Virus record (IMG/VR): IMGVR_UViG_3300014846_000039
Origin: a virus
Lineage: Duplodnaviria; Heunggongvirae; Uroviricota; Caudoviricetes
DNA length: 7,722 nucleotides
Strand: one strand, 5' to 3'
The position numbers and the translations under genes are program-made. Below the pieces are notes generated by a model. It had not been told where the DNA came from. It was given only the letters and a program-made list of their open reading frames with translations, and searched no databases. Positions 1,708-6,873 of this stretch are shown here, piece by piece. Position 1 is the stretch's first letter, and every line of letters starts with the position of its first letter.

Positions 1708-1945
1708 TTTTATGGATCACCTTTCTGATTGATTTCATATTGGCGAGGTGACGTGAGTTAAGTAGAATGGCTGCGGGGGGCTTGAGGCTATCTGTCTCAG
1801 GCATGAACACTGAAAGGCAGATAGAGAAAAGCCCCAGTTAACATTTCGCGTCCTGCAAGACGCTTAACATTAATCTGAGGCCCAATCTATGTCTCACAAA
1901 TGTAGGTTAGCCTCTTACGTGCCGAAAGGCAAGGGGAAGCAGGCT

Positions 1946-2209
1946 ATGAAGCAGCAAAAGGCGATGTTAATCGCCCTGATCGTCATCTGTTTAACCGTCA
2001 TTGTGACGGCACTGGTAACGAGGAAAGACCTCTGCGAGGTACGAATCCGAACCGGCCAGACGGAGGTCGCTGTCTTCACAGCTTTGCCAGGCATCCTCAA
2101 CGCACCCGCACTTAACCCGCTTCGGCGGGTTTTTGCATTAGTCTGGTTGACAAAAATAGAAAAATGCGAAAATATGTGGTTTACGAATTCTAAAAAAAGC
2201 GAAACTTGA
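1946..2209 (+). CDS. hokD: Hok/Gef-family membrane toxin, HokD(RelF)-like for the first 46 codons, with replaced and extended 3' end (possible pseudogene or variant)
   Basis: ATG 1946 with SD AAGGGGA at 1931-1937. Residues 1-46 (MKQQKAMLIALIVICLTVIVTALVTRKDLCEVRIRTGQTEVAVFTA) match HokD/RelF as I remember it; canonical Hok proteins are about 50 aa, but here the frame runs on to TGA 2207-2209 (87 aa) through a terminator hairpin and a promoter-like sequence. The ORF-track start at 1889 is in frame but upstream of the SD-supported ATG. Confidence 0.65.
   Translation: MKQQKAMLIALIVICLTVIVTALVTRKDLCEVRIRTGQTEVAVFTALPGILNAPALNPLRRVFALVWLTKIEKCENMWFTNSKKSET
2115..2134 (+). repeat. Direct repeat copy 1 (acccgcttcggcgggttttt), identical to 3950-3969
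   Basis: Exact 20-nt identity read directly from the sequence. Confidence 0.85.
2116..2134 (+). terminator. Rho-independent terminator-like hairpin (5-bp GC stem cccgc/gcggg, TTCG tetraloop, T5 run)
   Basis: Stem 2116-2120 pairs with 2125-2129, loop ttcg 2121-2124, T-run 2130-2134; lies inside the extended hok frame and just upstream of the cassette promoter-like element. Confidence 0.55.
2147..2176 (+). promoter_or_regulatory. Putative sigma70 promoter for the cassette (perfect -35 TTGACA, weak AT-rich -10)
   Basis: TTGACA at 2147-2152; about 17 nt downstream an AT-rich -10 candidate (aaatat 2170-2175); 35 nt before ATG 2211. The -10 is poor, so low confidence. Confidence 0.3.
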
Positions 2210-2210
2210 A

Positions 2211-2861
2211 ATGAATGAAAATCAGTTAGCTCCTTGTTGGGAATTTCAACCTTATCTTGCTGAAAACTATGTTCGCCACTTGTTGGCGGAGATCGCTAAC
2301 GTACTTGAGCAGCTGTACTATCATAAGCACGCATTAGACAGCAACTGGTCTGAAGGTGTAAGGGCTTATGATTGGGTCAGAAATCATCTTATTCAAAATG
2401 AAGATGCAATTCCTGGCCTTGAGATGATTTCCAAGGGGTTGGACTATGTAGTTGCTTTAAATAAAGTTCCGCTACAATTTACCAAAGATTGCATTAATAA
2501 CCCCAAAAAGAAACATCGTCTGCGTCGAAATAAAGTAGAGTATGAGCAGCTCTCATTGTTTGGTGATGTTGAGGCTGAGCAAGATATTACATGGCGAGTC
2601 ATAGCTGAGCCTTTTTTATCCGAAGAGGGCGATGGTGAATTAGAGTCCACACTGCCTCGTTGGGAGGTAGCTCTTGTTGGATTTAATACTTATGGTGCTC
2701 AGATTAGTATAGTTTCTCATCAATCTACAGCATCGATGCCGCTTATGCCTCTTGATTATAACACACTCCCTGACGAAGCGGAGATTAATAAGGTGCCTCT
2801 TCGTCGGCGTACGAAGGATAAAGATTTGGATGTGAGCAGTGATGGAACATCAGGTGAATAA
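2211..2861 (+). CDS. Hypothetical protein, 216 aa, no recognisable family; first gene of the inserted cassette
   Basis: ATG 2211, TAA 2859-2861; overlaps the downstream gene by 20 nt (operon-like). AT-rich codon usage (hand-counted samples about 33-38% G+C versus about 50% in flanking genes). No clear SD. Acidic protein with two basic patches (NPKKKHRLRRNK, VPLRRRTKDKD); no TM segment or catalytic motif recognised. Confidence 0.6.
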   Translation: MNENQLAPCWEFQPYLAENYVRHLLAEIANVLEQLYYHKHALDSNWSEGVRAYDWVRNHLIQNEDAIPGLEMISKGLDYVVALNKVPLQFTKDCINNPKKKHRLRRNKVEYEQLSLFGDVEAEQDITWRVIAEPFLSEEGDGELESTLPRWEVALVGFNTYGAQISIVSHQSTASMPLMPLDYNTLPDEAEINKVPLRRRTKDKDLDVSSDGTSGE

Positions 2862-3945
2862 CTTCACTGAGTATCGGGGTGATAAGCTCAAACTAGCGAG
2901 AATGGCTGTTGGGCTTTCTTGTGAAGAGTTAGCCGAAAAAATTGGCAAGACAAAGCAATTCGTTAGCAAACTGGAGAAGGGGTGCAGGCCATCGGAGCAA
3001 TGTCTTGAGTTAATATCTTCAGCGCTTATGATTAAGTCCAGTTTTCTTTTTACTGAACGAAAATACGCTCTGGAAAGTGATGTCTGCCATTTTCGGAGTA
3101 AGAAGTCCAGGACTCAAACGCTGACTAATAGTGTATTGGCCAGGGCTGAGATTCTTAATATTATAATTTCTGCTGTTGAAGGTGAAATCGAATTTCCTGA
3201 CGTTAACATACCGGAGCACCCAGGGGCTGAATTACTTACTCCGAATGATATTGAGCGAGTGGCAGAAGATTGTCGCCGTGCCTGGAATTTAGGTCTTGGC
3301 CCTATATCATCAATGGTTAAATTGGCGGAGAGTTTAGGGGTAATCGTTGCGCATGTTACGGGAGTCGATGATCGTGTTGATGCTTTTACTGTTCACAATA
3401 ACAGGCCTGTTATCATCAGGAACAATGTTAAAAAAAGCATATGTAGATTTCGCTCTGATTTAGGTCATGAATTAGGGCATTTAGTAATGCATGAGGGCAT
3501 AACGACAGGTGATAAACTTACGGAATCACAAGCCGATCACTTTTCGAGCGCCTTATTAGTTCCCAGGTTATCTTTCATTAAAGAATTTCCACGAATACGA
3601 GGTAAGCAATTCGACTGGAATGCTCTGGTTGAATTTAAACTTAGATGGAAAATCAGCCTTAAAATGTGTATTTATCGAGCCAGCGCATTAGGCTTATTGA
3701 CCCAGGAACAGGCAAGAACTGGCTATATGCATCTTAATTCCAGAGGGTATACGAGAGTTGAACCTGGTGATGAACTTTTGCGCCCTGAAGAACCCGGCAT
3801 GCTGGCCGAGGCGATTGAAATGCTGGATGATGCAACCTGGCTAAGAATTCTTATGAAAACTGGCTTGAGCCAAGATTTAATTCGTGAGTTGTTCTCCATC
3901 AACAGACCTATTACAAATCCAAGAAATATTTTCCAGATTGTTTGA
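2842..3945 (+). CDS. HTH_XRE DNA-binding domain fused to ImmA/IrrE-family (COG2856, M78-like) zinc metallopeptidase, with a C-terminal extension of about 110 aa
   Basis: N-terminal XRE-type HTH (LKLARMAVGLSCEELAEKIGKTKQFVSKLEKG); HEXXH zinc motif HELGH encoded at 3466-3480; downstream third-ligand motif typical of ImmA/IrrE (ESQADHFSSALLVP). ORF track starts at GTG 2839; the adjacent ATG at 2842 is preferred. Stop TGA 3943-3945, followed immediately by a terminator. Confidence 0.8.
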   Translation: MEHQVNNFTEYRGDKLKLARMAVGLSCEELAEKIGKTKQFVSKLEKGCRPSEQCLELISSALMIKSSFLFTERKYALESDVCHFRSKKSRTQTLTNSVLARAEILNIIISAVEGEIEFPDVNIPEHPGAELLTPNDIERVAEDCRRAWNLGLGPISSMVKLAESLGVIVAHVTGVDDRVDAFTVHNNRPVIIRNNVKKSICRFRSDLGHELGHLVMHEGITTGDKLTESQADHFSSALLVPRLSFIKEFPRIRGKQFDWNALVEFKLRWKISLKMCIYRASALGLLTQEQARTGYMHLNSRGYTRVEPGDELLRPEEPGMLAEAIEMLDDATWLRILMKTGLSQDLIRELFSINRPITNPRNIFQIV

Positions 3946-3949
3946 GTAT

Positions 3950-3969
3950 ACCCGCTTCGGCGGGTTTTT
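3950..3969 (+). repeat. Direct repeat copy 2 (acccgcttcggcgggttttt), identical to 2115-2134
   Basis: Exact 20-nt identity read directly from the sequence. Confidence 0.85.
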
Positions 3970-3970
3970 T
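3951..3970 (+). terminator. Rho-independent terminator (cccgc / TTCG loop / gcggg, T6 run) ending the cassette
   Basis: Stem 3951-3955 / 3960-3964, loop 3956-3959, T-run 3965-3970; 5 nt after the stop codon of the peptidase gene. Confidence 0.6.
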
Positions 3971-3989
3971 GTTTTTATTTTCAACGTGT

Positions 3990-4019
3990 TTGAAGTTTTG
4001 GACGGTGCCAGAATAGAAT
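3990..4019 (+). promoter_or_regulatory. Putative promoter (TTGAAG, 18-nt spacer, TAGAAT) upstream of the small ORFs
   Basis: -35-like TTGAAG 3990-3995 and -10-like TAGAAT 4014-4019; sequence-only guess. Confidence 0.25.
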
Positions 4020-4054
4020 CAAAAATACTTAAGTAGCGCGCAGGGAGAAGAGGG

Positions 4055-4276
4055 ATGGACCCCGAACAGGGGGAGTGCTATTTATCTGGAAGGATTCTGT
4101 TGATGAAAATCGAAGAATTACGTGAAATTTTTAGTGAAGATGGCCTCTATGCTGTGCGCGTTGAGAATGGGGGTATTACCTACACAGCGTTAATTCCTGA
4201 TGATCATGTAGTGTTATCTGTTGAGGCATTCATTGAATACTTGGAAAGACTCGGTTTCAAGGTAGTTCGGGAATAA
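4055..4276 (+). CDS. Hypothetical small phage protein (73 aa; 57 aa if started at ATG 4103)
   Basis: ATG 4055 preceded by purine-rich GGGAGAAGAGGG (4043-4054); alternative ATG 4103 preceded by GGAAGGA (4088-4094). Stop TAA 4274-4276. No family recognised. Confidence 0.5.
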   Translation: MDPEQGECYLSGRILLMKIEELREIFSEDGLYAVRVENGGITYTALIPDDHVVLSVEAFIEYLERLGFKVVRE

Positions 4277-4335
4277 GTTATAATACGTGAGCCAGCCTGA
4301 ACAACTGGCACCTGCTGCGCCAGCAGAGACAACCG

Positions 4336-4608
4336 ATGGCGCACAATACCAAACACCACAATTCTGATGCCGACCCTGCCAGCAGACACGGACGGCGCTC
4401 TCACGCATTCAAATATGACTGGTACCAGCATGACCAATGCACTGAAGAACAGGCCGAGTGGCTGATTCAGAATTACCGCAGACGTGGATACCAGTTTCAG
4501 AAAGGCCTCAGTCCTGACTTCCGACACTGGATAATTTCCGTCAGGCTCCCTTATTCCGAACGCCCGCCGCGTCCGTCCCGCACATATCAGCAACGCATCT
4601 GGAGGTAA
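4336..4608 (+). CDS. Hypothetical small basic protein (90 aa)
   Basis: ORF from the track; no clear SD; its stop TAA 4606-4608 is embedded in the RBS/start of the next gene, suggesting coupling. Positionally analogous to the small gene (rem) that I recall between hokD and ydfU in the K-12 Qin prophage, but the sequence was not recognised. Confidence 0.4.
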   Translation: MAHNTKHHNSDADPASRHGRRSHAFKYDWYQHDQCTEEQAEWLIQNYRRRGYQFQKGLSPDFRHWIISVRLPYSERPPRPSRTYQQRIWR

Positions 4609-4609
4609 C

Positions 4610-5668
4610 GTGCGGGTATTACTTCGACCTGTTCTGGTACCGGAACTCAGTCTGGTTATCGTTAAGCCAGGCCGTGAATCAATGTCAGTATTCCATAACG
4701 GCAGAATATTGGTGGAACCGGAACCCAAAAACATGCGCAGTCTTCCGTCCGGCGTCGTTGCAGCCGTTAGCCAGCCGTTGGCTGAGGATAAAACATTACT
4801 ACCATTTTTCAGCGATGAGCGGGTAATTCGTGCAGCAGGTGGTGCAGGTGCACTGTCTGACTGGTTATTACGTCACGTGAAATCCTGCCAGTGGCCACAC
4901 GGCGATTATCATCACAGCGAAACAGTCATTCACCGTTACGGTACCGGCGCGATGGTGTTGTGCTGGCACTGTGACAACCAGCTGCGCAACCAGACATCAG
5001 AATCACTCGATCAACTTGCTCAGCAGAATCTGGTTGCCTGGATGATTGACGTCATCCGTCACGCAATAAGCGGTACGCAGGAGAGGGAGTTATCGCTGGC
5101 CGAATTATCCTGGTGGGCGGCCTGCAATCAGGTGGTGGATGCACTACCTGAGGCAGTAGCGCGTCGTTCGCTGGGATTACCGGTGGAAACAATCCGCTCC
5201 GTATACCGTGAGAGTGACATCGTACCGGGAGAACAGACAGCCATCAGCATACTGAAGCAGCGCACAAAAAATATTGCGCTTCCACTTCACGTCCACCAGC
5301 AACAGCCCCCACCCCAGGAAAAGACGTTAGTAAGCATCGCCGTTGATCCGGAGTCTCCGGCTCAGTACCTCCAGCGCCAGAAACCACAACGGGAAGAGAT
5401 GCCTGTATACACGCGCTGGGTAAAAACGCAGAAATGCATGACGTGCGGTAATCAGGCAGATGATCCGCATCACATCATTGGTCATGGACTGGGAGGGATG
5501 GGAACAAAGGCTGACGATTTGTTTGTTATTCCGTTGTGCCGTAAATGCCATAACAAACTACATGCCGGAGTAAAAGATTTTGAAGAAAAACACGGCAGTC
5601 AGCTGTTGTTGCTGATTCGTTTTTTAATGCACGCGAGAAATTCGGGTGTTCTGAAGTGGAAAGCATAA
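4610..5668 (+). CDS. DUF968-family prophage protein (YdfU-like) with C-terminal HNH-like Cys/His motif
   Basis: GTG 4610 preceded by GGAGG 4601-4605; alternative ATG at 4682. C-terminus carries CMTCGNQADDPHHIIGHGLGG...CRKCHNKLH, a Cys/His pattern I associate with DUF968/HNH-like zinc-binding. Stop TAA 5666-5668 directly abuts the rusA ATG. Confidence 0.65.
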   Translation: MRVLLRPVLVPELSLVIVKPGRESMSVFHNGRILVEPEPKNMRSLPSGVVAAVSQPLAEDKTLLPFFSDERVIRAAGGAGALSDWLLRHVKSCQWPHGDYHHSETVIHRYGTGAMVLCWHCDNQLRNQTSESLDQLAQQNLVAWMIDVIRHAISGTQERELSLAELSWWAACNQVVDALPEAVARRSLGLPVETIRSVYRESDIVPGEQTAISILKQRTKNIALPLHVHQQQPPPQEKTLVSIAVDPESPAQYLQRQKPQREEMPVYTRWVKTQKCMTCGNQADDPHHIIGHGLGGMGTKADDLFVIPLCRKCHNKLHAGVKDFEEKHGSQLLLLIRFLMHARNSGVLKWKA

Positions 5669-6049
5669 ATGACCGAACGCATAGAATTTGTTTTGCCTTA
5701 CCCGCCGACGGTGAACACTTACTGGCGACGCCGTGGCAGCACATATTTTGTATCAAAAGCCGGGGAGCGTTATCGCCGGGCAGTGGCGCTTATTGTTCGC
5801 CAGCAGCGGCTGAAATTAAGCCTGTCCGGAAGGTTGGCAATAAAAATTATTGCAGAACCACCGGATAAGCGCCGCCGTGACCCGGACAATATTCTGAAAG
5901 CGCCGCTGGATGCGCTGACGCATGCGGGGTTGCTAATGGACGATGAGCAGTTTGATGAAATCAATATCGTTCGTGCTCAGCCAGTATCTGGTGGACGTCT
6001 GGGGGTGAAGATTTACCCCATAATGCTTGAAGGGCAGGTCAAAAAATGA
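5669..6049 (+). CDS. rusA: Holliday-junction resolvase RusA family
   Basis: 126-aa ORF with RusA-like blocks (LPYPPTVNTYWRR; DKRRRDPDNILKAPLDALTHAGLLMDDEQ; GGRLGV) comparable to E. coli RusA. Stop overlaps the next start (ATGA at 6046-6049). Confidence 0.85.
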   Translation: MTERIEFVLPYPPTVNTYWRRRGSTYFVSKAGERYRRAVALIVRQQRLKLSLSGRLAIKIIAEPPDKRRRDPDNILKAPLDALTHAGLLMDDEQFDEINIVRAQPVSGGRLGVKIYPIMLEGQVKK

Positions 6050-6702
6050 AACTGGAAGATTTACCGAAATACTACTCCCCAAAATCCCCCGGCCTGACTG
6101 ATGCATCGGCCTCAACGTCGAAAGATGCGCTGAGTATCACTGATGTGATGGCCGCGCAGGGCATGACACAGAATCGGGCTGAGATGGGGTTTTCTGCGTT
6201 CCTTGGGAAAATGGGCATTAGTATGAATGACAGAGAGCGGGCAACAGAATTGCTGACAGAATATGCACTCAGTCGGTGTGATCGCGTGGCGGCGTTAAGA
6301 AAACTCCCGGCAGAAATAAAACCGGTAGTGATGCGCATTATGGCTTCGTACGCTTTTGAGGATTATGCCCGCAGCGCAGCGAGTAAAAAGCAGTGCCCTT
6401 GTTGCTATGGGGAAAAATTTATTGAAAGCGTAGTTTTTACAAACAAGGTCCAGTATCCGGATGGTAAGCCGCCGGTATGGGCAAAGTGTACGAAAGGTGT
6501 GTATCCGTCTTACTGGGAAGAATGGAAAAAAAATCGGGAGGTGGTAAAAGTTGCCTGTCCGGAGTGTGGCGGAAAGGGTGAGGTTTCCACCGCCTGTAAG
6601 GATTGCCGTGGGCGTGGTGTCGCCATTCATCGTGAAGAGTCGGTAAAACGTGGTATGCCTGTTATCAGAGACTGCCAGCGTTGTGGTTGGTCGTGGCTGT
6701 GA
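6046..6702 (+). CDS. Late-gene antitermination protein Q family
   Basis: 218-aa ORF immediately after rusA (typical lambdoid order), with Cys-rich zinc-finger-like segments (CPCCYGEKF, CPECGGKGEVSTACKDCRGRG, CQRCGW) and followed by a promoter plus intrinsic terminator, as expected for Q / pR' / tR'. Confidence 0.75.
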   Translation: MKLEDLPKYYSPKSPGLTDASASTSKDALSITDVMAAQGMTQNRAEMGFSAFLGKMGISMNDRERATELLTEYALSRCDRVAALRKLPAEIKPVVMRIMASYAFEDYARSAASKKQCPCCYGEKFIESVVFTNKVQYPDGKPPVWAKCTKGVYPSYWEEWKKNREVVKVACPECGGKGEVSTACKDCRGRGVAIHREESVKRGMPVIRDCQRCGWSWL

Positions 6703-6873
6703 AAGGCTGCCATCAACGGAGGCATTTAATGCCATATGCAAAGTGACGAGTGCTATCACGCTTGATACGTGGAAAAAATCAGTGAAACGCTTTTACGATA
6801 CGTTGGTGGTTCGGTTTGACATTGAAGAGGCATGGGCGGAGCGGCAGTTAAAGAGGGTAACGCGATAGTGTTG

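What the first reader, a model, noticed from the sequence alone, without database searches (positions are those of the whole stretch)
2115..3969. Identical 20-nt terminator hairpins (acccgcttcggcgggttttt) bracketing the cassette
Exact 20-nt identity at 2115-2134 and 3950-3969; each is a GC stem with a TTCG tetraloop and T-run. Exact duplication on both flanks of a compositionally distinct insert suggests either that the terminator served as the recombination site for cassette gain, or a duplication created on insertion. The first copy lies inside the aberrant 3' extension of hok.
Basis: seen in the sequence. Interest (0 to 1): 0.55.

Follow-up and report, generated by a model that had tools for sequence, protein, structure and literature searches.

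The report
Terminator hairpin brackets a defence cassette
The two identical 20-base hairpins are the hok toxin gene's own terminator and a second copy closing an inserted RosmerTA anti-phage cassette, and comparison with hundreds of related prophages indicates that this hairpin is the joint at which different defence and toxin-antitoxin cassettes are swapped in and out.

Summary
ACCCGCTTCGGCGGGTTTTT occurs exactly twice (2115-2134 and 3950-3969), and both copies fold as terminators.

The left copy is the native terminator of hok/sok. The 1.8-kb insert is a RosmerTA (RmrT+RmrA) moron with its own conserved promoter.

Empty sites exist: an intact hok, one hairpin, then the same right flank. In an unbiased sample of 89 hok-terminator loci, 74 were empty and 12 occupied.

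The occupied sites hold at least five cargoes: three RosmerTA subtypes, an HTH+M78 peptidase pair and a Phd/Doc-like pair. Each starts right after the T-run and ends in a second near-identical hairpin followed by the native flank.

In 1.5 Mb of these prophages the hairpin core occurs only at hok and at cargo ends. The right copy's T-run length usually follows the downstream flank, which places crossovers inside the hairpin.

The same cargoes end in this hairpin in unrelated slots, including tail operons.

Best reading: the hairpin serves as short homology for recombination. This resembles the PeSL cassettes of T4-like phages. It is not a transposon target duplication.

The aberrant hok extension comes from a separate 56-bp deletion private to this sequence.

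Novelty: a new variant of a known kind. Interest is moderate.

The parts
1776..1951 (+). hok/sok regulatory region (hok mRNA leader, mok start, sok target)
   Evidence: Rfam RF01794 'sok' match, 116 bits against a gathering score of 59, E 1e-26. The window differs from its nearest relative L143 at 1778-1779, in the presumed tac element.
1946..2084 (+). hok (HokD-type) coding sequence, truncated at its 3' end by a 56-bp deletion between 2084 and 2085. The reading frame then runs on to 2209.
   Evidence: Pfam HOK_GEF, 9e-22. Alignment with E. coli 118UI shows the 56-bp gap. The junction is absent from 5,426 genomes.
2094..2110 (+). fbi-like element of the hok mRNA 3' end, complementary to the 5' tac region around 1781-1797
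   Evidence: RNAduplex of 1760-1830 with 2085-2114 gives -31.0 kcal/mol against -22.1 +/- 4.0 for shuffles. The assignment as fbi rests on established hok/sok biology (own knowledge).
2115..2134 (+). Left copy of the hairpin (T): the native intrinsic terminator of hok mRNA
   Evidence: Present as the only copy, with the same upstream fbi sequence, in empty sites. Called by the terminator scan. Folds at -15.1 kcal/mol.
2135..2210 (+). Cassette promoter and 5'-UTR block: -35 TTGACA at 2147-2152, candidate -10 region at about 2165-2176, then an invariant leader up to the rmrT ATG
   Evidence: Invariant block GGTTGACA..CGAAAATAT..GGTTTAC..AAAAAGCGAAACTT.A.ATG in 9 different genomic contexts (alignment A3). 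The consensus promoter scan did not call it, so promoter function is inferred.
2211..2861 (+). rmrT, toxin of the RosmerTA system (216 aa)
   Evidence: PADLOC RmrT PDLC03929, 4.6e-25, full length. No Pfam family.
2842..3945 (+). rmrA, antitoxin of RosmerTA (HTH + M78 Zn-peptidase with HELGH motif). It overlaps the end of rmrT. A GTG at 2839 is an alternative start.
   Evidence: PADLOC RmrA PDLC03943, 6e-105. Pfam HTH_3 and Peptidase_M78. RefSeq annotates the 1104-nt gene.
3950..3970 (+). Right copy of the hairpin (T, with a 6-T run): terminator of the cassette and right-hand recombination joint
   Evidence: Exact repeat. Terminator-like. Folds at -10.9 kcal/mol. It is followed at once by the sequence that follows the single hairpin in empty sites.
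3971..4276 (+). Native downstream flank: rem leader and a rem-like ORF (probable start at 4103)
   Evidence: Collinear with the empty sites L002, L003 and L282.
2135..3969 (+). The inserted unit relative to empty sites: 1815 bp of cargo plus one hairpin copy (equivalently 2115-3949)
   Evidence: Three-way alignment of the empty site with the left and right junctions (A2). The 1815-bp cargo is found in 237 of 5,426 E. coli genomes.

Best explanation
The two hairpins are one terminator present twice. The left copy is the native Rho-independent terminator that ends the hok mRNA. The right copy ends an inserted RosmerTA toxin-antitoxin/defence moron (own promoter, rmrT, rmrA).

The hairpin plus its T-run is about 20-24 nt of identity. 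It acts as the short homology at which accessory cassettes are recombined into, out of and between temperate phage genomes. A cassette that carries such a hairpin recombines with the resident hok terminator. This could occur by two crossovers between co-resident phage genomes, by integration of a circle carrying [cargo + one hairpin], or by template switching. Each route yields hok-T-cargo-T-flank. The direct repeat can later delete the cargo or exchange the flank.

Functionally, the arrangement keeps the hok mRNA 3' end intact. It also insulates the cassette from upstream transcription and stops cassette transcripts before rem and the nin genes.

What is shown: the empty/occupied relationship, the precise junctions, recurrence with five cargoes, and restriction of the hairpin to hok and cargo ends within this phage family.

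What is inferred: that recombination, probably by phage Rad52-like recombinases, uses the hairpin as homology; the intermediates; and the terminator and promoter activities.
For: (1) Empty sites. An intact hok, one hairpin, then the identical right flank is seen in HannyBb, PPompW/Stx2_14040 and 65 E. coli genomes with the window's own flank type.

(2) Occupancy. In 89 usable loci retrieved only by the hok fbi+terminator string, 74 were empty, 3 had another backbone and 12 were occupied. All 12 occupied loci have a second hairpin.

(3) Cargo diversity. At least five cargo types and at least six junction types (RosmerTA-a, -b, -c, HTH+M78, two Phd/Doc variants) begin directly after the T-run of hok's hairpin. 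Each ends in CCCGC(T/C)T(C/A)GGCGGG+T followed at position 0 by a native flank.

(4) Census. In 157 hok-linked loci (1.51 Mb) the 14-nt core occurs only as the hok terminator plus 44 extra copies, all at cargo ends. There are none elsewhere and none on the minus strand, although 102 other terminator-like hairpin types are present.

(5) T-run bookkeeping. The right copy's T-run length mostly follows the downstream flank type. It is T4 with the 'D' flank for three different cargoes and T6 with the B and A-like flanks. The left copy's T-run follows the cargo. The same Doc cargo is joined to five or more different right flanks. Together these place crossovers inside the hairpin or T-run.

(6) Other contexts. 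The same RosmerTA subfamily sits in at least 7 other contexts. In several hok-less ones it is again bracketed by ACCCG-stem hairpins at a fixed distance from its -35.

(7) A second slot. In a tail-operon slot, homology between L165 (RosmerTA) and L039/L052/L060 (DUF6694 lipoprotein cargo) resumes within 1-3 nt of the exact 20-mer. Diverged Doc-like cargoes in tail and nin slots also end in the exact 20-mer.

(8) Plausibility. The minimal efficient pairing segment of Red-beta is 23-27 bp, and Rad52-like recombinases drive lambdoid mosaicism on short, diverged homologies (PMC3945230). A published precedent exists for terminator/promoter cassettes acting as recombination linkers in T4-like phages (PMC2839356).
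Against: The shared identity (20-24 nt) is at or just below the Red-beta minimal pairing segment, so events would be rare.

The 20-mer is a near-optimal terminator: a GC stem closed on a C(UUCG)G tetraloop. It recurs in many unrelated phage contigs, so some of the identity could be convergent.

Right-hand hairpins of diverged RosmerTA copies keep the stem but differ in the loop (TACG, TATAT, CATTG, TGCTT). This fits a terminator inherited vertically with the cassette as well as it fits recombination.

For the window's own class the right copy has T6 while A-type empty sites have T5, so the T-run rule fails by one base.

No circular intermediate, tandem [cargo-T][cargo-T] array or very recent (>99% identical backbone) empty/occupied pair was found. 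The best empty site is 96.3% identical.

No experiment was possible.
Confidence: 0.65

Rival explanations
1. Functional coincidence. Each cargo brought its own terminator, and this happens to be the same hyperstable GC-stem/UUCG hairpin by convergent selection. Insertion was by illegitimate recombination, and selection kept only insertions that leave hok's terminator intact. On this view the hairpins are terminators only, not recombination substrates.
For: The exact 20-mer is found in more than 90 unrelated IMG/VR contexts. Diverged RosmerTA copies carry same-stem, different-loop hairpins as if inherited with the cassette. Morons classically carry their own promoter and terminator (PMC3594210).
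Against: At least six junction types all lie exactly at the end of hok's T-run, and the native flank resumes at position 0 after the second hairpin. Random insertion into a 40-130-nt intergenic target would scatter. Within 1.5 Mb of these prophages the core occurs at no terminator other than hok's and the cargo ends, while 102 other hairpin types are used. The right copy's T-run length mostly co-varies with the flank, not with the cargo.
Confidence: 0.13
2. Copy-choice. The hairpin stalls replication, and the nascent strand ending in the hairpin switches to another template carrying the same hairpin. It copies the cargo and switches back at the next hairpin. The product is the same as in the best explanation, but the mechanism is replicative rather than break-join.
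For: The evidence is the same precise, hairpin-limited junctions. The hairpin is stable, at -11 to -15 kcal/mol. That stable hairpins promote template switching rests on general knowledge.
Against: Nothing here distinguishes it from annealing-based recombination. The stem is only 6-7 bp.
Confidence: 0.1
3. Dedicated hairpin-directed site-specific recombination. In this integron-attC-like or IS200/IS605-like model, an enzyme encoded elsewhere recognises the folded hairpin and inserts [cargo + hairpin] units.
For: The architecture of cassettes that each end in a near-identical folded element resembles integron cassettes. The same element closes different cargoes in non-homologous slots: the nin region, between tail genes, and before DinI.
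Against: No integrase, HUH or tyrosine recombinase gene lies in or next to the cassette in the window. No tandem arrays were seen. Slots occur in phages of different types with no shared candidate enzyme identified. The element lacks attC core sites.
Confidence: 0.07
4. Target-site duplication made by a transposable element that carried the cassette.
For: Direct repeats flank an insert of different composition.
Against: There is no transposase or integrase in the 1.8-kb insert, which holds only rmrT and rmrA. There are no terminal inverted repeats at 2135 and 3949. A 20-24 nt repeat is far longer than usual target duplications. The same repeat flanks five unrelated cargoes.
Confidence: 0.02

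Closest known systems
PeSL (promoter-early stem-loop) regulatory cassettes of T4-like phages RB49/phi1 (Arbiol et al. 2010, PMC2839356)
   Same: A stem-loop terminator sits directly next to a sigma70-type promoter at the borders of inserted, deleted or replaced accessory genes. Here the hairpin is 12 nt upstream of the cassette's TTGACA. The repeated element is proposed to serve as the homology ('linker') for modular shuffling, and it also insulates transcription.
   Different: The phages here are temperate lambdoid/siphoviral prophages, not virulent T4-like phages. The conserved part is the terminator hairpin itself (ACCCGC-TTCG-GCGGG-T run) rather than the promoter plus a polyG/polyC stem, and there is no sequence relationship. 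The cargoes are toxin-antitoxin/defence operons rather than ORFans. Mini-circles have not been shown here. [quoted passage not shown]
Morons of lambdoid phages (Juhala/Hendrix; reviewed in PMC3594210)
   Same: This is an autonomous unit with its own promoter and terminator and different G+C. It is absent from close relatives, inserted between two phage genes, and expressed from the prophage.
   Different: Classical moron accretion assumes illegitimate recombination with no conserved flanking sequence. Here the flanking terminator is duplicated, shared by different morons, and coincides with the junctions.
RosmerTA anti-phage toxin-antitoxin system (Millman et al. 2022, bioRxiv 10.1101/2022.05.11.491447)
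   Same: The two-gene operon has a toxin of unknown function followed by an antitoxin with HTH and Zn-peptidase domains. There are strong PADLOC RmrT and RmrA matches.
   Different: This concerns only the cargo, not the hairpins. Activity of this particular allele is untested, and its RmrT is a weak member of model PDLC03929 (86 bits against 308 bits for the L198 allele).
hok/sok type I toxin-antitoxin locus (hokD/relF-type of lambdoid prophages)
   Same: The left hairpin is the terminator at the 3' end of the hok mRNA, directly after the fbi element. Hok domain and sok Rfam matches are present.
   Different: In the window hok has lost its last codons, its stop codon and a 3'-UTR hairpin through a private 56-bp deletion. 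It also has a change in the 5' tac region, so it is probably non-functional.
Botstein-Campbell 'linker' model and boundary sequences of lambdoid mosaicism; relaxed homologous recombination by Rad52-like recombinases (De Paepe et al. 2014, PMC3945230)
   Same: Module exchange occurs at short conserved sequences between genes. The hok terminator is itself joined to at least four different downstream backbones, starting right after its T-run.
   Different: Here the linker is identified as a specific intrinsic terminator that is duplicated by cassette gain. Its length (20-24 nt) is at the lower limit of the measured pairing requirement.
Integron gene cassettes (ORF + attC)
   Same: Promoter-proximal slot filled by interchangeable cassettes that each end in a folded imperfect or perfect palindrome.
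   Different: There is no integrase, no attI or attC core sites, and no arrays. The cassettes carry their own promoters.

Membership tests
Intrinsic (Rho-independent) terminator | G+C-rich stem-loop immediately followed by a T (U) run on the transcribed strand | tested here: met
   Both copies are called by the terminator scan. They fold at -15.1 and -10.9 kcal/mol, with z-scores of about -3.
Intrinsic (Rho-independent) terminator | Position just downstream of the stop codon of a co-oriented gene or operon | tested here: met
   The right copy starts 5 nt after the rmrA stop (3945). The left copy lies 64 nt (intervening) after the hokD stop codon in relatives with an intact hok.
Intrinsic (Rho-independent) terminator | Measured termination of transcription | not testable with these tools
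   This needs Term-seq, 3'-end mapping or a reporter assay.
hok/sok type I TA locus | Hok/Gef family toxin ORF | tested here: met
   Pfam HOK_GEF, 9.2e-22.
hok/sok type I TA locus | sok antisense and leader RNA region | tested here: met
   Rfam RF01794, 116 bits against a gathering score of 59.
hok/sok type I TA locus | 3' fbi element complementary to the 5' tac element, followed by a terminator | tested here: inconclusive
   The duplex is -31.0 kcal/mol against -22.1 +/- 4.0 for shuffles, z about -2.2. The window has a change in the tac region.
hok/sok type I TA locus | Intact hok reading frame with its stop codon before the terminator | tested here: not met
   A 56-bp deletion removes the stop codon. 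The frame runs through the terminator to 2209.
RosmerTA defence system | Adjacent co-oriented rmrT and rmrA genes matching the system's profiles | tested here: met
   PADLOC RmrT 4.6e-25 and RmrA 6.2e-105. The genes overlap by about 20 nt.
RosmerTA defence system | Antitoxin with an HTH domain plus a Zn-peptidase (M78, HExxH) domain | tested here: met
   Pfam HTH_3 5e-07 and Peptidase_M78 6e-11. The HELGH motif is in the translation.
RosmerTA defence system | Toxicity neutralised by the antitoxin, and protection against phage | not testable with these tools
   This was shown for other alleles in Millman et al. 2022. It is untested for this one.
Moron | Present in some and absent from other closely related phages, at a gene boundary | tested here: met
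   Empty and occupied sites were both found.
Moron | Composition different from the neighbouring genes | tested here: met
   G+C is 0.40-0.45 inside against 0.47-0.55 outside.
Moron | Own promoter | tested here: inconclusive
   An invariant TTGACA-containing block lies upstream of rmrT in 9 contexts, but the consensus promoter scan did not call it.
Moron | Own terminator | tested here: met
   The right hairpin lies directly after rmrA.
PeSL-like recombination linker cassette | Stem-loop terminator adjacent to a sigma70-type promoter, in an intergenic position | tested here: met
   The hairpin ends at 2134 and TTGACA is at 2147-2152. A hairpin + T-run abuts the conserved promoter block at a fixed distance in 7 of 9 contexts.
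PeSL-like recombination linker cassette | Copies of the element coincide with the borders of insertions, deletions or replacements between relatives | tested here: met
   
PeSL-like recombination linker cassette | Circular [cargo + one element] molecules produced by recombination between flanking copies | not testable with these tools
   This needs outward-facing PCR or a read-level search in lysogens.
PeSL-like recombination linker cassette | Sequence homology to the T4-type PeSL motif | not tested
   Homology is not expected, so this is treated as an analogue, not a member.
Transposon target-site duplication | Transposase or integrase gene, or terminal inverted repeats, in the insert | tested here: not met
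   The insert holds only rmrT and rmrA. No inverted repeat pairs the insert ends.
Integron cassette (attC) | Integron integrase and attI nearby, and arrays of cassettes | tested here: not met
   There is no integrase in the window. No tandem arrays occur among 157 loci.

The most novel reading that the evidence does not exclude
The hairpin could be the att-like joint of a cassette system in temperate enterobacterial phages. Units of [promoter-cargo-hairpin] would leave by hairpin x hairpin recombination, possibly as mini-circles, and re-enter at any resident copy of the hairpin. Such units include toxin-antitoxin and defence morons, and arguably hok/sok itself. This would move cassettes between non-homologous slots: after hok, elsewhere in the nin region and between tail genes. 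It would be a lambdoid counterpart of T4-type PeSL shuffling, working as an integrase-free, integron-like exchange of defence cassettes.
Probability: 0.3. Interest if true: 0.75.

Novelty: new variant of a known kind. Interest (0 to 1): 0.52.

Why it matters
How morons and defence cassettes move between phage genomes is unresolved. It is also unresolved whether phage mosaic joints come from short homologies or from random illegitimate events filtered by selection (stated as still debated in PMC3945230).

This locus offers a concrete, recurrent and sequence-defined joint. A single terminator hairpin bounds at least five different TA/defence cargoes at one slot, and it closes the same cargoes in unrelated slots. 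That makes the 'linker' model directly testable with a simple mutational design.

It also defines a predictable hotspot, immediately after the hok terminator of lambdoid prophages. About 13% of those sites were occupied in the sample, and the hotspot could be mined for new defence genes.

Practically, the direct repeat predicts spontaneous precise loss of the RosmerTA cassette.

Tried and rejected
- A 110-nt query across the hok deletion could not separate deleted from intact loci, because two joined pieces score like one. I replaced it with a 44-nt junction-specific query, which found nothing.
- Folding 375 nt of hok mRNA from an arbitrary 5' end did not recover the tac-fbi pairing. I replaced it with a duplex calculation, which is only moderately significant.
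- My first hairpin census used a flawed regular expression and missed the 20-mer itself. I redid it by explicit enumeration.
- The genome-contig scan for RmrA relatives returned only one locus, from E. albertii.
- I considered and rejected a transposon target duplication and an integron, because there is no enzyme, no terminal repeats and no arrays.
- I searched for tandem [cargo-T][cargo-T] arrays and found none.
- I searched for a near-identical (>99%) empty counterpart of the window's prophage and found none. The best is 96.3%.
- Literature searches for a described hok-adjacent defence hotspot or terminator-mediated moron exchange in lambdoid phages found none in the held library. This is not proof of absence.
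- I did not characterise RmrT further (structure or remote homology), because it does not bear on the hairpins.
Full report
OBSERVATION. The string ACCCGCTTCGGCGGGTTTTT occurs exactly twice in the window, at 2115-2134 and 3950-3969 on the + strand. There are no further matches with up to three mismatches, and no match in 200 dinucleotide-preserving shuffles (repeat family D6). The identity is limited to the 20-mer, and the right copy has one more T. Both copies are called terminator-like. They fold into a 6-7 bp G+C stem closed on a TTCG loop, at -15.1 and -10.9 kcal/mol. The DNA between them has lower G+C, 0.40-0.45 against 0.47-0.55 outside.

WHAT LIES AROUND IT. The window is the nin region of a lambdoid prophage of E. 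coli. In order it carries a DUF977 gene, a QueH homologue, hok/sok, the insert, a rem-like ORF, a 90-aa ORF, and DUF968, RusA and antiterminator Q genes. The hok locus is recognised by Pfam HOK_GEF and Rfam sok (116 bits).

The insert encodes RmrT (PADLOC 4.6e-25) and RmrA (6e-105; HTH plus M78 Zn-peptidase). This is the RosmerTA toxin-antitoxin defence system of Millman et al. 2022. The 1815-bp cargo is present in 237 of 5,426 complete E. coli genomes, almost always at 99% identity or higher.

THE ABERRANT HOK. Alignment with strain 118UI, which carries the identical cassette, shows that the window lacks 56 bp after position 2084. The missing stretch holds the last hok codons, the stop codon and a 3'-UTR hairpin. 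The deletion junction is absent from all 5,426 complete genomes and from every IMG/VR locus with the cassette.

It is therefore a private lesion, independent of cassette gain. If transcription ends at the left hairpin, the hok message has no stop codon, so hok is probably inactive (inference).

The nearest relative held (L143) is identical to the window from 2085 to 6325. Against it, the window also has a change in the hok 5' tac region and a +1 frameshift in Q, which shortens Q from 273 to 218 aa. This looks like a decaying prophage that keeps an intact defence cassette.

EMPTY SITES. Phages HannyBb and PPompW/Stx2_14040 have an intact hok, the fbi-like sequence and one copy of the 20-mer. 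This is followed directly by GTTTTTATTTTCAACG..., the sequence that follows the second copy in the window.

I built the hypothetical excision product carrying the window's own distinctive right flank and searched for it. It matched as a single piece in 65 E. coli genomes, the best at 96.3% over 651 nt. A three-way alignment shows that the empty site equals the left flank, one hairpin and the right flank.

So the inserted unit is 1815 bp of cargo plus one hairpin copy.

IS THE 20-MER A GENERIC TERMINATOR? A G+C stem closed on a C(UUCG)G tetraloop is a near-optimal terminator, so convergence is plausible.

Within hok-carrying prophages the picture differs. In 157 loci (1.51 Mb) the 14-nt core occurs only as the hok terminator plus 44 further copies, all at the right end of inserted cargo. 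None occurs elsewhere or on the other strand, while 102 other terminator-like hairpin types are in use.

OTHER CARGO AT THE SAME SITE. I scanned IMG/VR for the hok-specific fbi+terminator string and classified what follows it. Among 89 usable loci:
- 74 are empty: 35 continue into rem, 35 into the 90-aa gene, and 4 are Rac-like.
- 3 continue into a different nin backbone.
- 12 are occupied.

The occupants are:
- the window's RosmerTA;
- a second RosmerTA allele (L198; RmrT 308 bits, RmrA 515 bits);
- a third RosmerTA subtype (L239);
- an HTH protein plus an M78 peptidase (L185 type);
- a small ORF plus a Fic/Doc protein (L115, L106, L224).

Every cargo starts immediately after the T-run of hok's hairpin. 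Every one ends in a second hairpin that is exact or differs by one base, and a native downstream flank follows from its first base. Random insertion into the 40-130-nt intergenic target would not give this.

WHERE THE CROSSOVERS ARE. The right copy's T-run length mostly follows the downstream flank type and not the cargo. It is T4 with the 'D' flank for RosmerTA, Doc and HTH+M78 alike, and T6 with the B and A-like flanks. The left copy's T-run follows the cargo's left junction.

The same Doc cargo is joined to five or more different right flanks. Even without cargo, hok's terminator is joined to at least four different backbones. These patterns place recurrent mosaic joints inside the hairpin or T-run. 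One exception concerns the window's own class, where the right copy has T6 while A-type empty sites have T5.

THE CASSETTE ELSEWHERE. Relatives of this RmrA (73-100% aa) occur in at least nine contexts: after replication genes, after hok, between Q and the lysis genes, and in a tail operon. All share an invariant promoter/5'-UTR block containing TTGACA (alignment A3).

In seven of the nine, a hairpin plus T-run abuts that block at a fixed distance. In five of those it is an ACCCG-stem hairpin. The right-hand hairpin keeps the stem ACCCGC/GCGGGT in seven contexts, but the loops differ.

In L165 the cassette lies between a tape-measure-like gene and the downstream tail genes, and it ends in the exact 20-mer. 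Its relatives L039, L052 and L060 carry a DUF6694 lipoprotein there instead, and homology resumes within 1-3 nt of the 20-mer.

Diverged Doc-like cargoes (73-78% aa) in two different tail slots, and in front of a DinI gene, also end in the exact 20-mer.

MECHANISM. The best-supported reading is that the hairpin, about 20-24 nt of identity, is the short homology at which cassettes are recombined. A cassette carrying such a hairpin recombines with a resident copy and yields T-cargo-T. The direct repeat then allows loss or flank exchange.

The minimal efficient pairing segment is 23-27 bp for Red-beta and 31-34 bp for RecA, and Rad52-like recombinases drive lambdoid mosaicism on short, diverged homologies (PMC3945230). 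So the element is at the margin of what these enzymes use, which is adequate for rare evolutionary events.

Whether the route is two crossovers, a mini-circle or template switching cannot be told from sequence. What is shown is the junction anatomy, its recurrence and the restricted distribution of the hairpin. The enzymology, the intermediates and the terminator and promoter activities are inferred.

Functionally, the arrangement preserves the hok mRNA 3' end. It also shields the toxin-first operon from upstream read-through and stops its transcripts before rem (inference).

RIVALS.
- Convergent own-terminator plus illegitimate insertion explains the wide occurrence of the 20-mer. It does not explain the junction precision, the census or the T-run bookkeeping.
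- A transposon target duplication is excluded by the lack of any transposase or terminal repeats and by the same repeat flanking unrelated cargoes.
- A dedicated hairpin-specific recombinase (integron-like) is not excluded, but it has no candidate enzyme and no arrays were seen.

COMPARISON WITH WHAT IS KNOWN. The cargo is a member of RosmerTA, and the left hairpin belongs to hok/sok. The unit is a moron in the classical sense, with its own promoter and terminator (PMC3594210).

The closest published mechanism is the PeSL cassettes of T4-like phages. These are stem-loop terminators next to sigma70 promoters that flank indels and serve as recombination linkers, with mini-circles (PMC2839356). 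[quoted passage not shown]

The present case is an analogue, not a homologue. It occurs in temperate phages, the terminator itself is the conserved joint, and the payload is defence or TA operons. I found no description of the hok-terminator slot or of terminator-bounded cassette exchange in lambdoid prophages in the held library.

VERDICT. The target-duplication alternative is rejected as a transposition event. I rate this a new variant of a known kind, of moderate interest. Its main value is that it gives the old 'linker versus illegitimate recombination' question a defined, testable sequence, and that it marks a minable defence hotspot right after hok.

Noticed in passing
window 2084|2085: A 56-bp deletion removes the last hok codons, the stop codon and a 3'-UTR hairpin. 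The frame then runs through the terminator to 2209, which would give a non-stop message if transcription terminates there. The junction is absent from 5,426 complete E. coli genomes and from all related IMG/VR loci.
   Followed up: yes
window 6687 (Q gene, 6046-6868): An extra T relative to the nearest relative L143 frameshifts the antiterminator Q gene. The product drops from 273 aa to 218 aa, plus an overlapping 72-aa ORF. Together with the hok lesions this suggests a decaying prophage that keeps an intact defence cassette.
   Followed up: partly
window 1778-1779: The presumed tac element of the hok mRNA reads GCGGGGGGC where relatives have GCGGGTGC (one substitution and one extra G).
   Followed up: partly
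window 6326-6737: About 40 substitutions relative to L143 are clustered in 412 nt inside Q. There are none in the preceding 4.2 kb and few after. This looks like a small recombination patch.
   Followed up: no
L339 4789-5566 (IMGVR_UViG_2671180309_000002): A 249-aa ORF inserted between gpL-like and gpK-like tail genes ends in a further exact copy of the 20-mer. The same contig has a Doc-like cargo plus the 20-mer in front of the gpM-like gene.
   Followed up: partly
IMG/VR loci L016, L023, L037, L056, L064, L067, L080, L081, L090, L096, L108 and others: In many unrelated phage contigs the 20-mer is followed by a similar string: T-run + ATTGCC(C/T)GGAG + 5-7 nt + ATG, in front of different genes. 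This may be a longer conserved terminator-plus-ribosome-site intercistronic unit.
   Followed up: no
window 2190-2213 and alignment A3: The leader AAAAAGCGAAACTTGAAATG before rmrT is invariant across cassettes whose proteins are only 73% identical. It has no obvious Shine-Dalgarno sequence, so it may be a regulatory or operator element for RmrA.
   Followed up: no
NZ_CP069459.1 (H1) and NZ_AP045810.1 (H2): In two E. coli genomes the RosmerTA cassette is interrupted by an IS5-family and an IS3-family element respectively.
   Followed up: no
L127 (NZ_AP026904.1, pMY504-2, 237-kb linear 'plasmid'): The same hok-T-RosmerTA-T arrangement lies on a record annotated as a plasmid. It could be a phage-plasmid or an assembly artefact.
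   Followed up: no
window 4103-4276: The rem-like ORF shares only its N-terminal third with Rem of PPompW/HannyBb. Its C-terminal part is unrelated, so there is another mosaic joint inside the gene.
   Followed up: no
L177 (Escherichia albertii NBRC 107761, NZ_BBMY01000139.1): The identical rmrA gene (100% aa) and the same right junction occur in E. albertii. The cassette-bearing prophage therefore crosses species.
   Followed up: no
L060 3561-4364, L039 1473-2276: A DUF6694 lipoprotein moron occupies the tape-measure/gpM slot in relatives of L165, and it is closed by the same exact 20-mer.
   Followed up: partly
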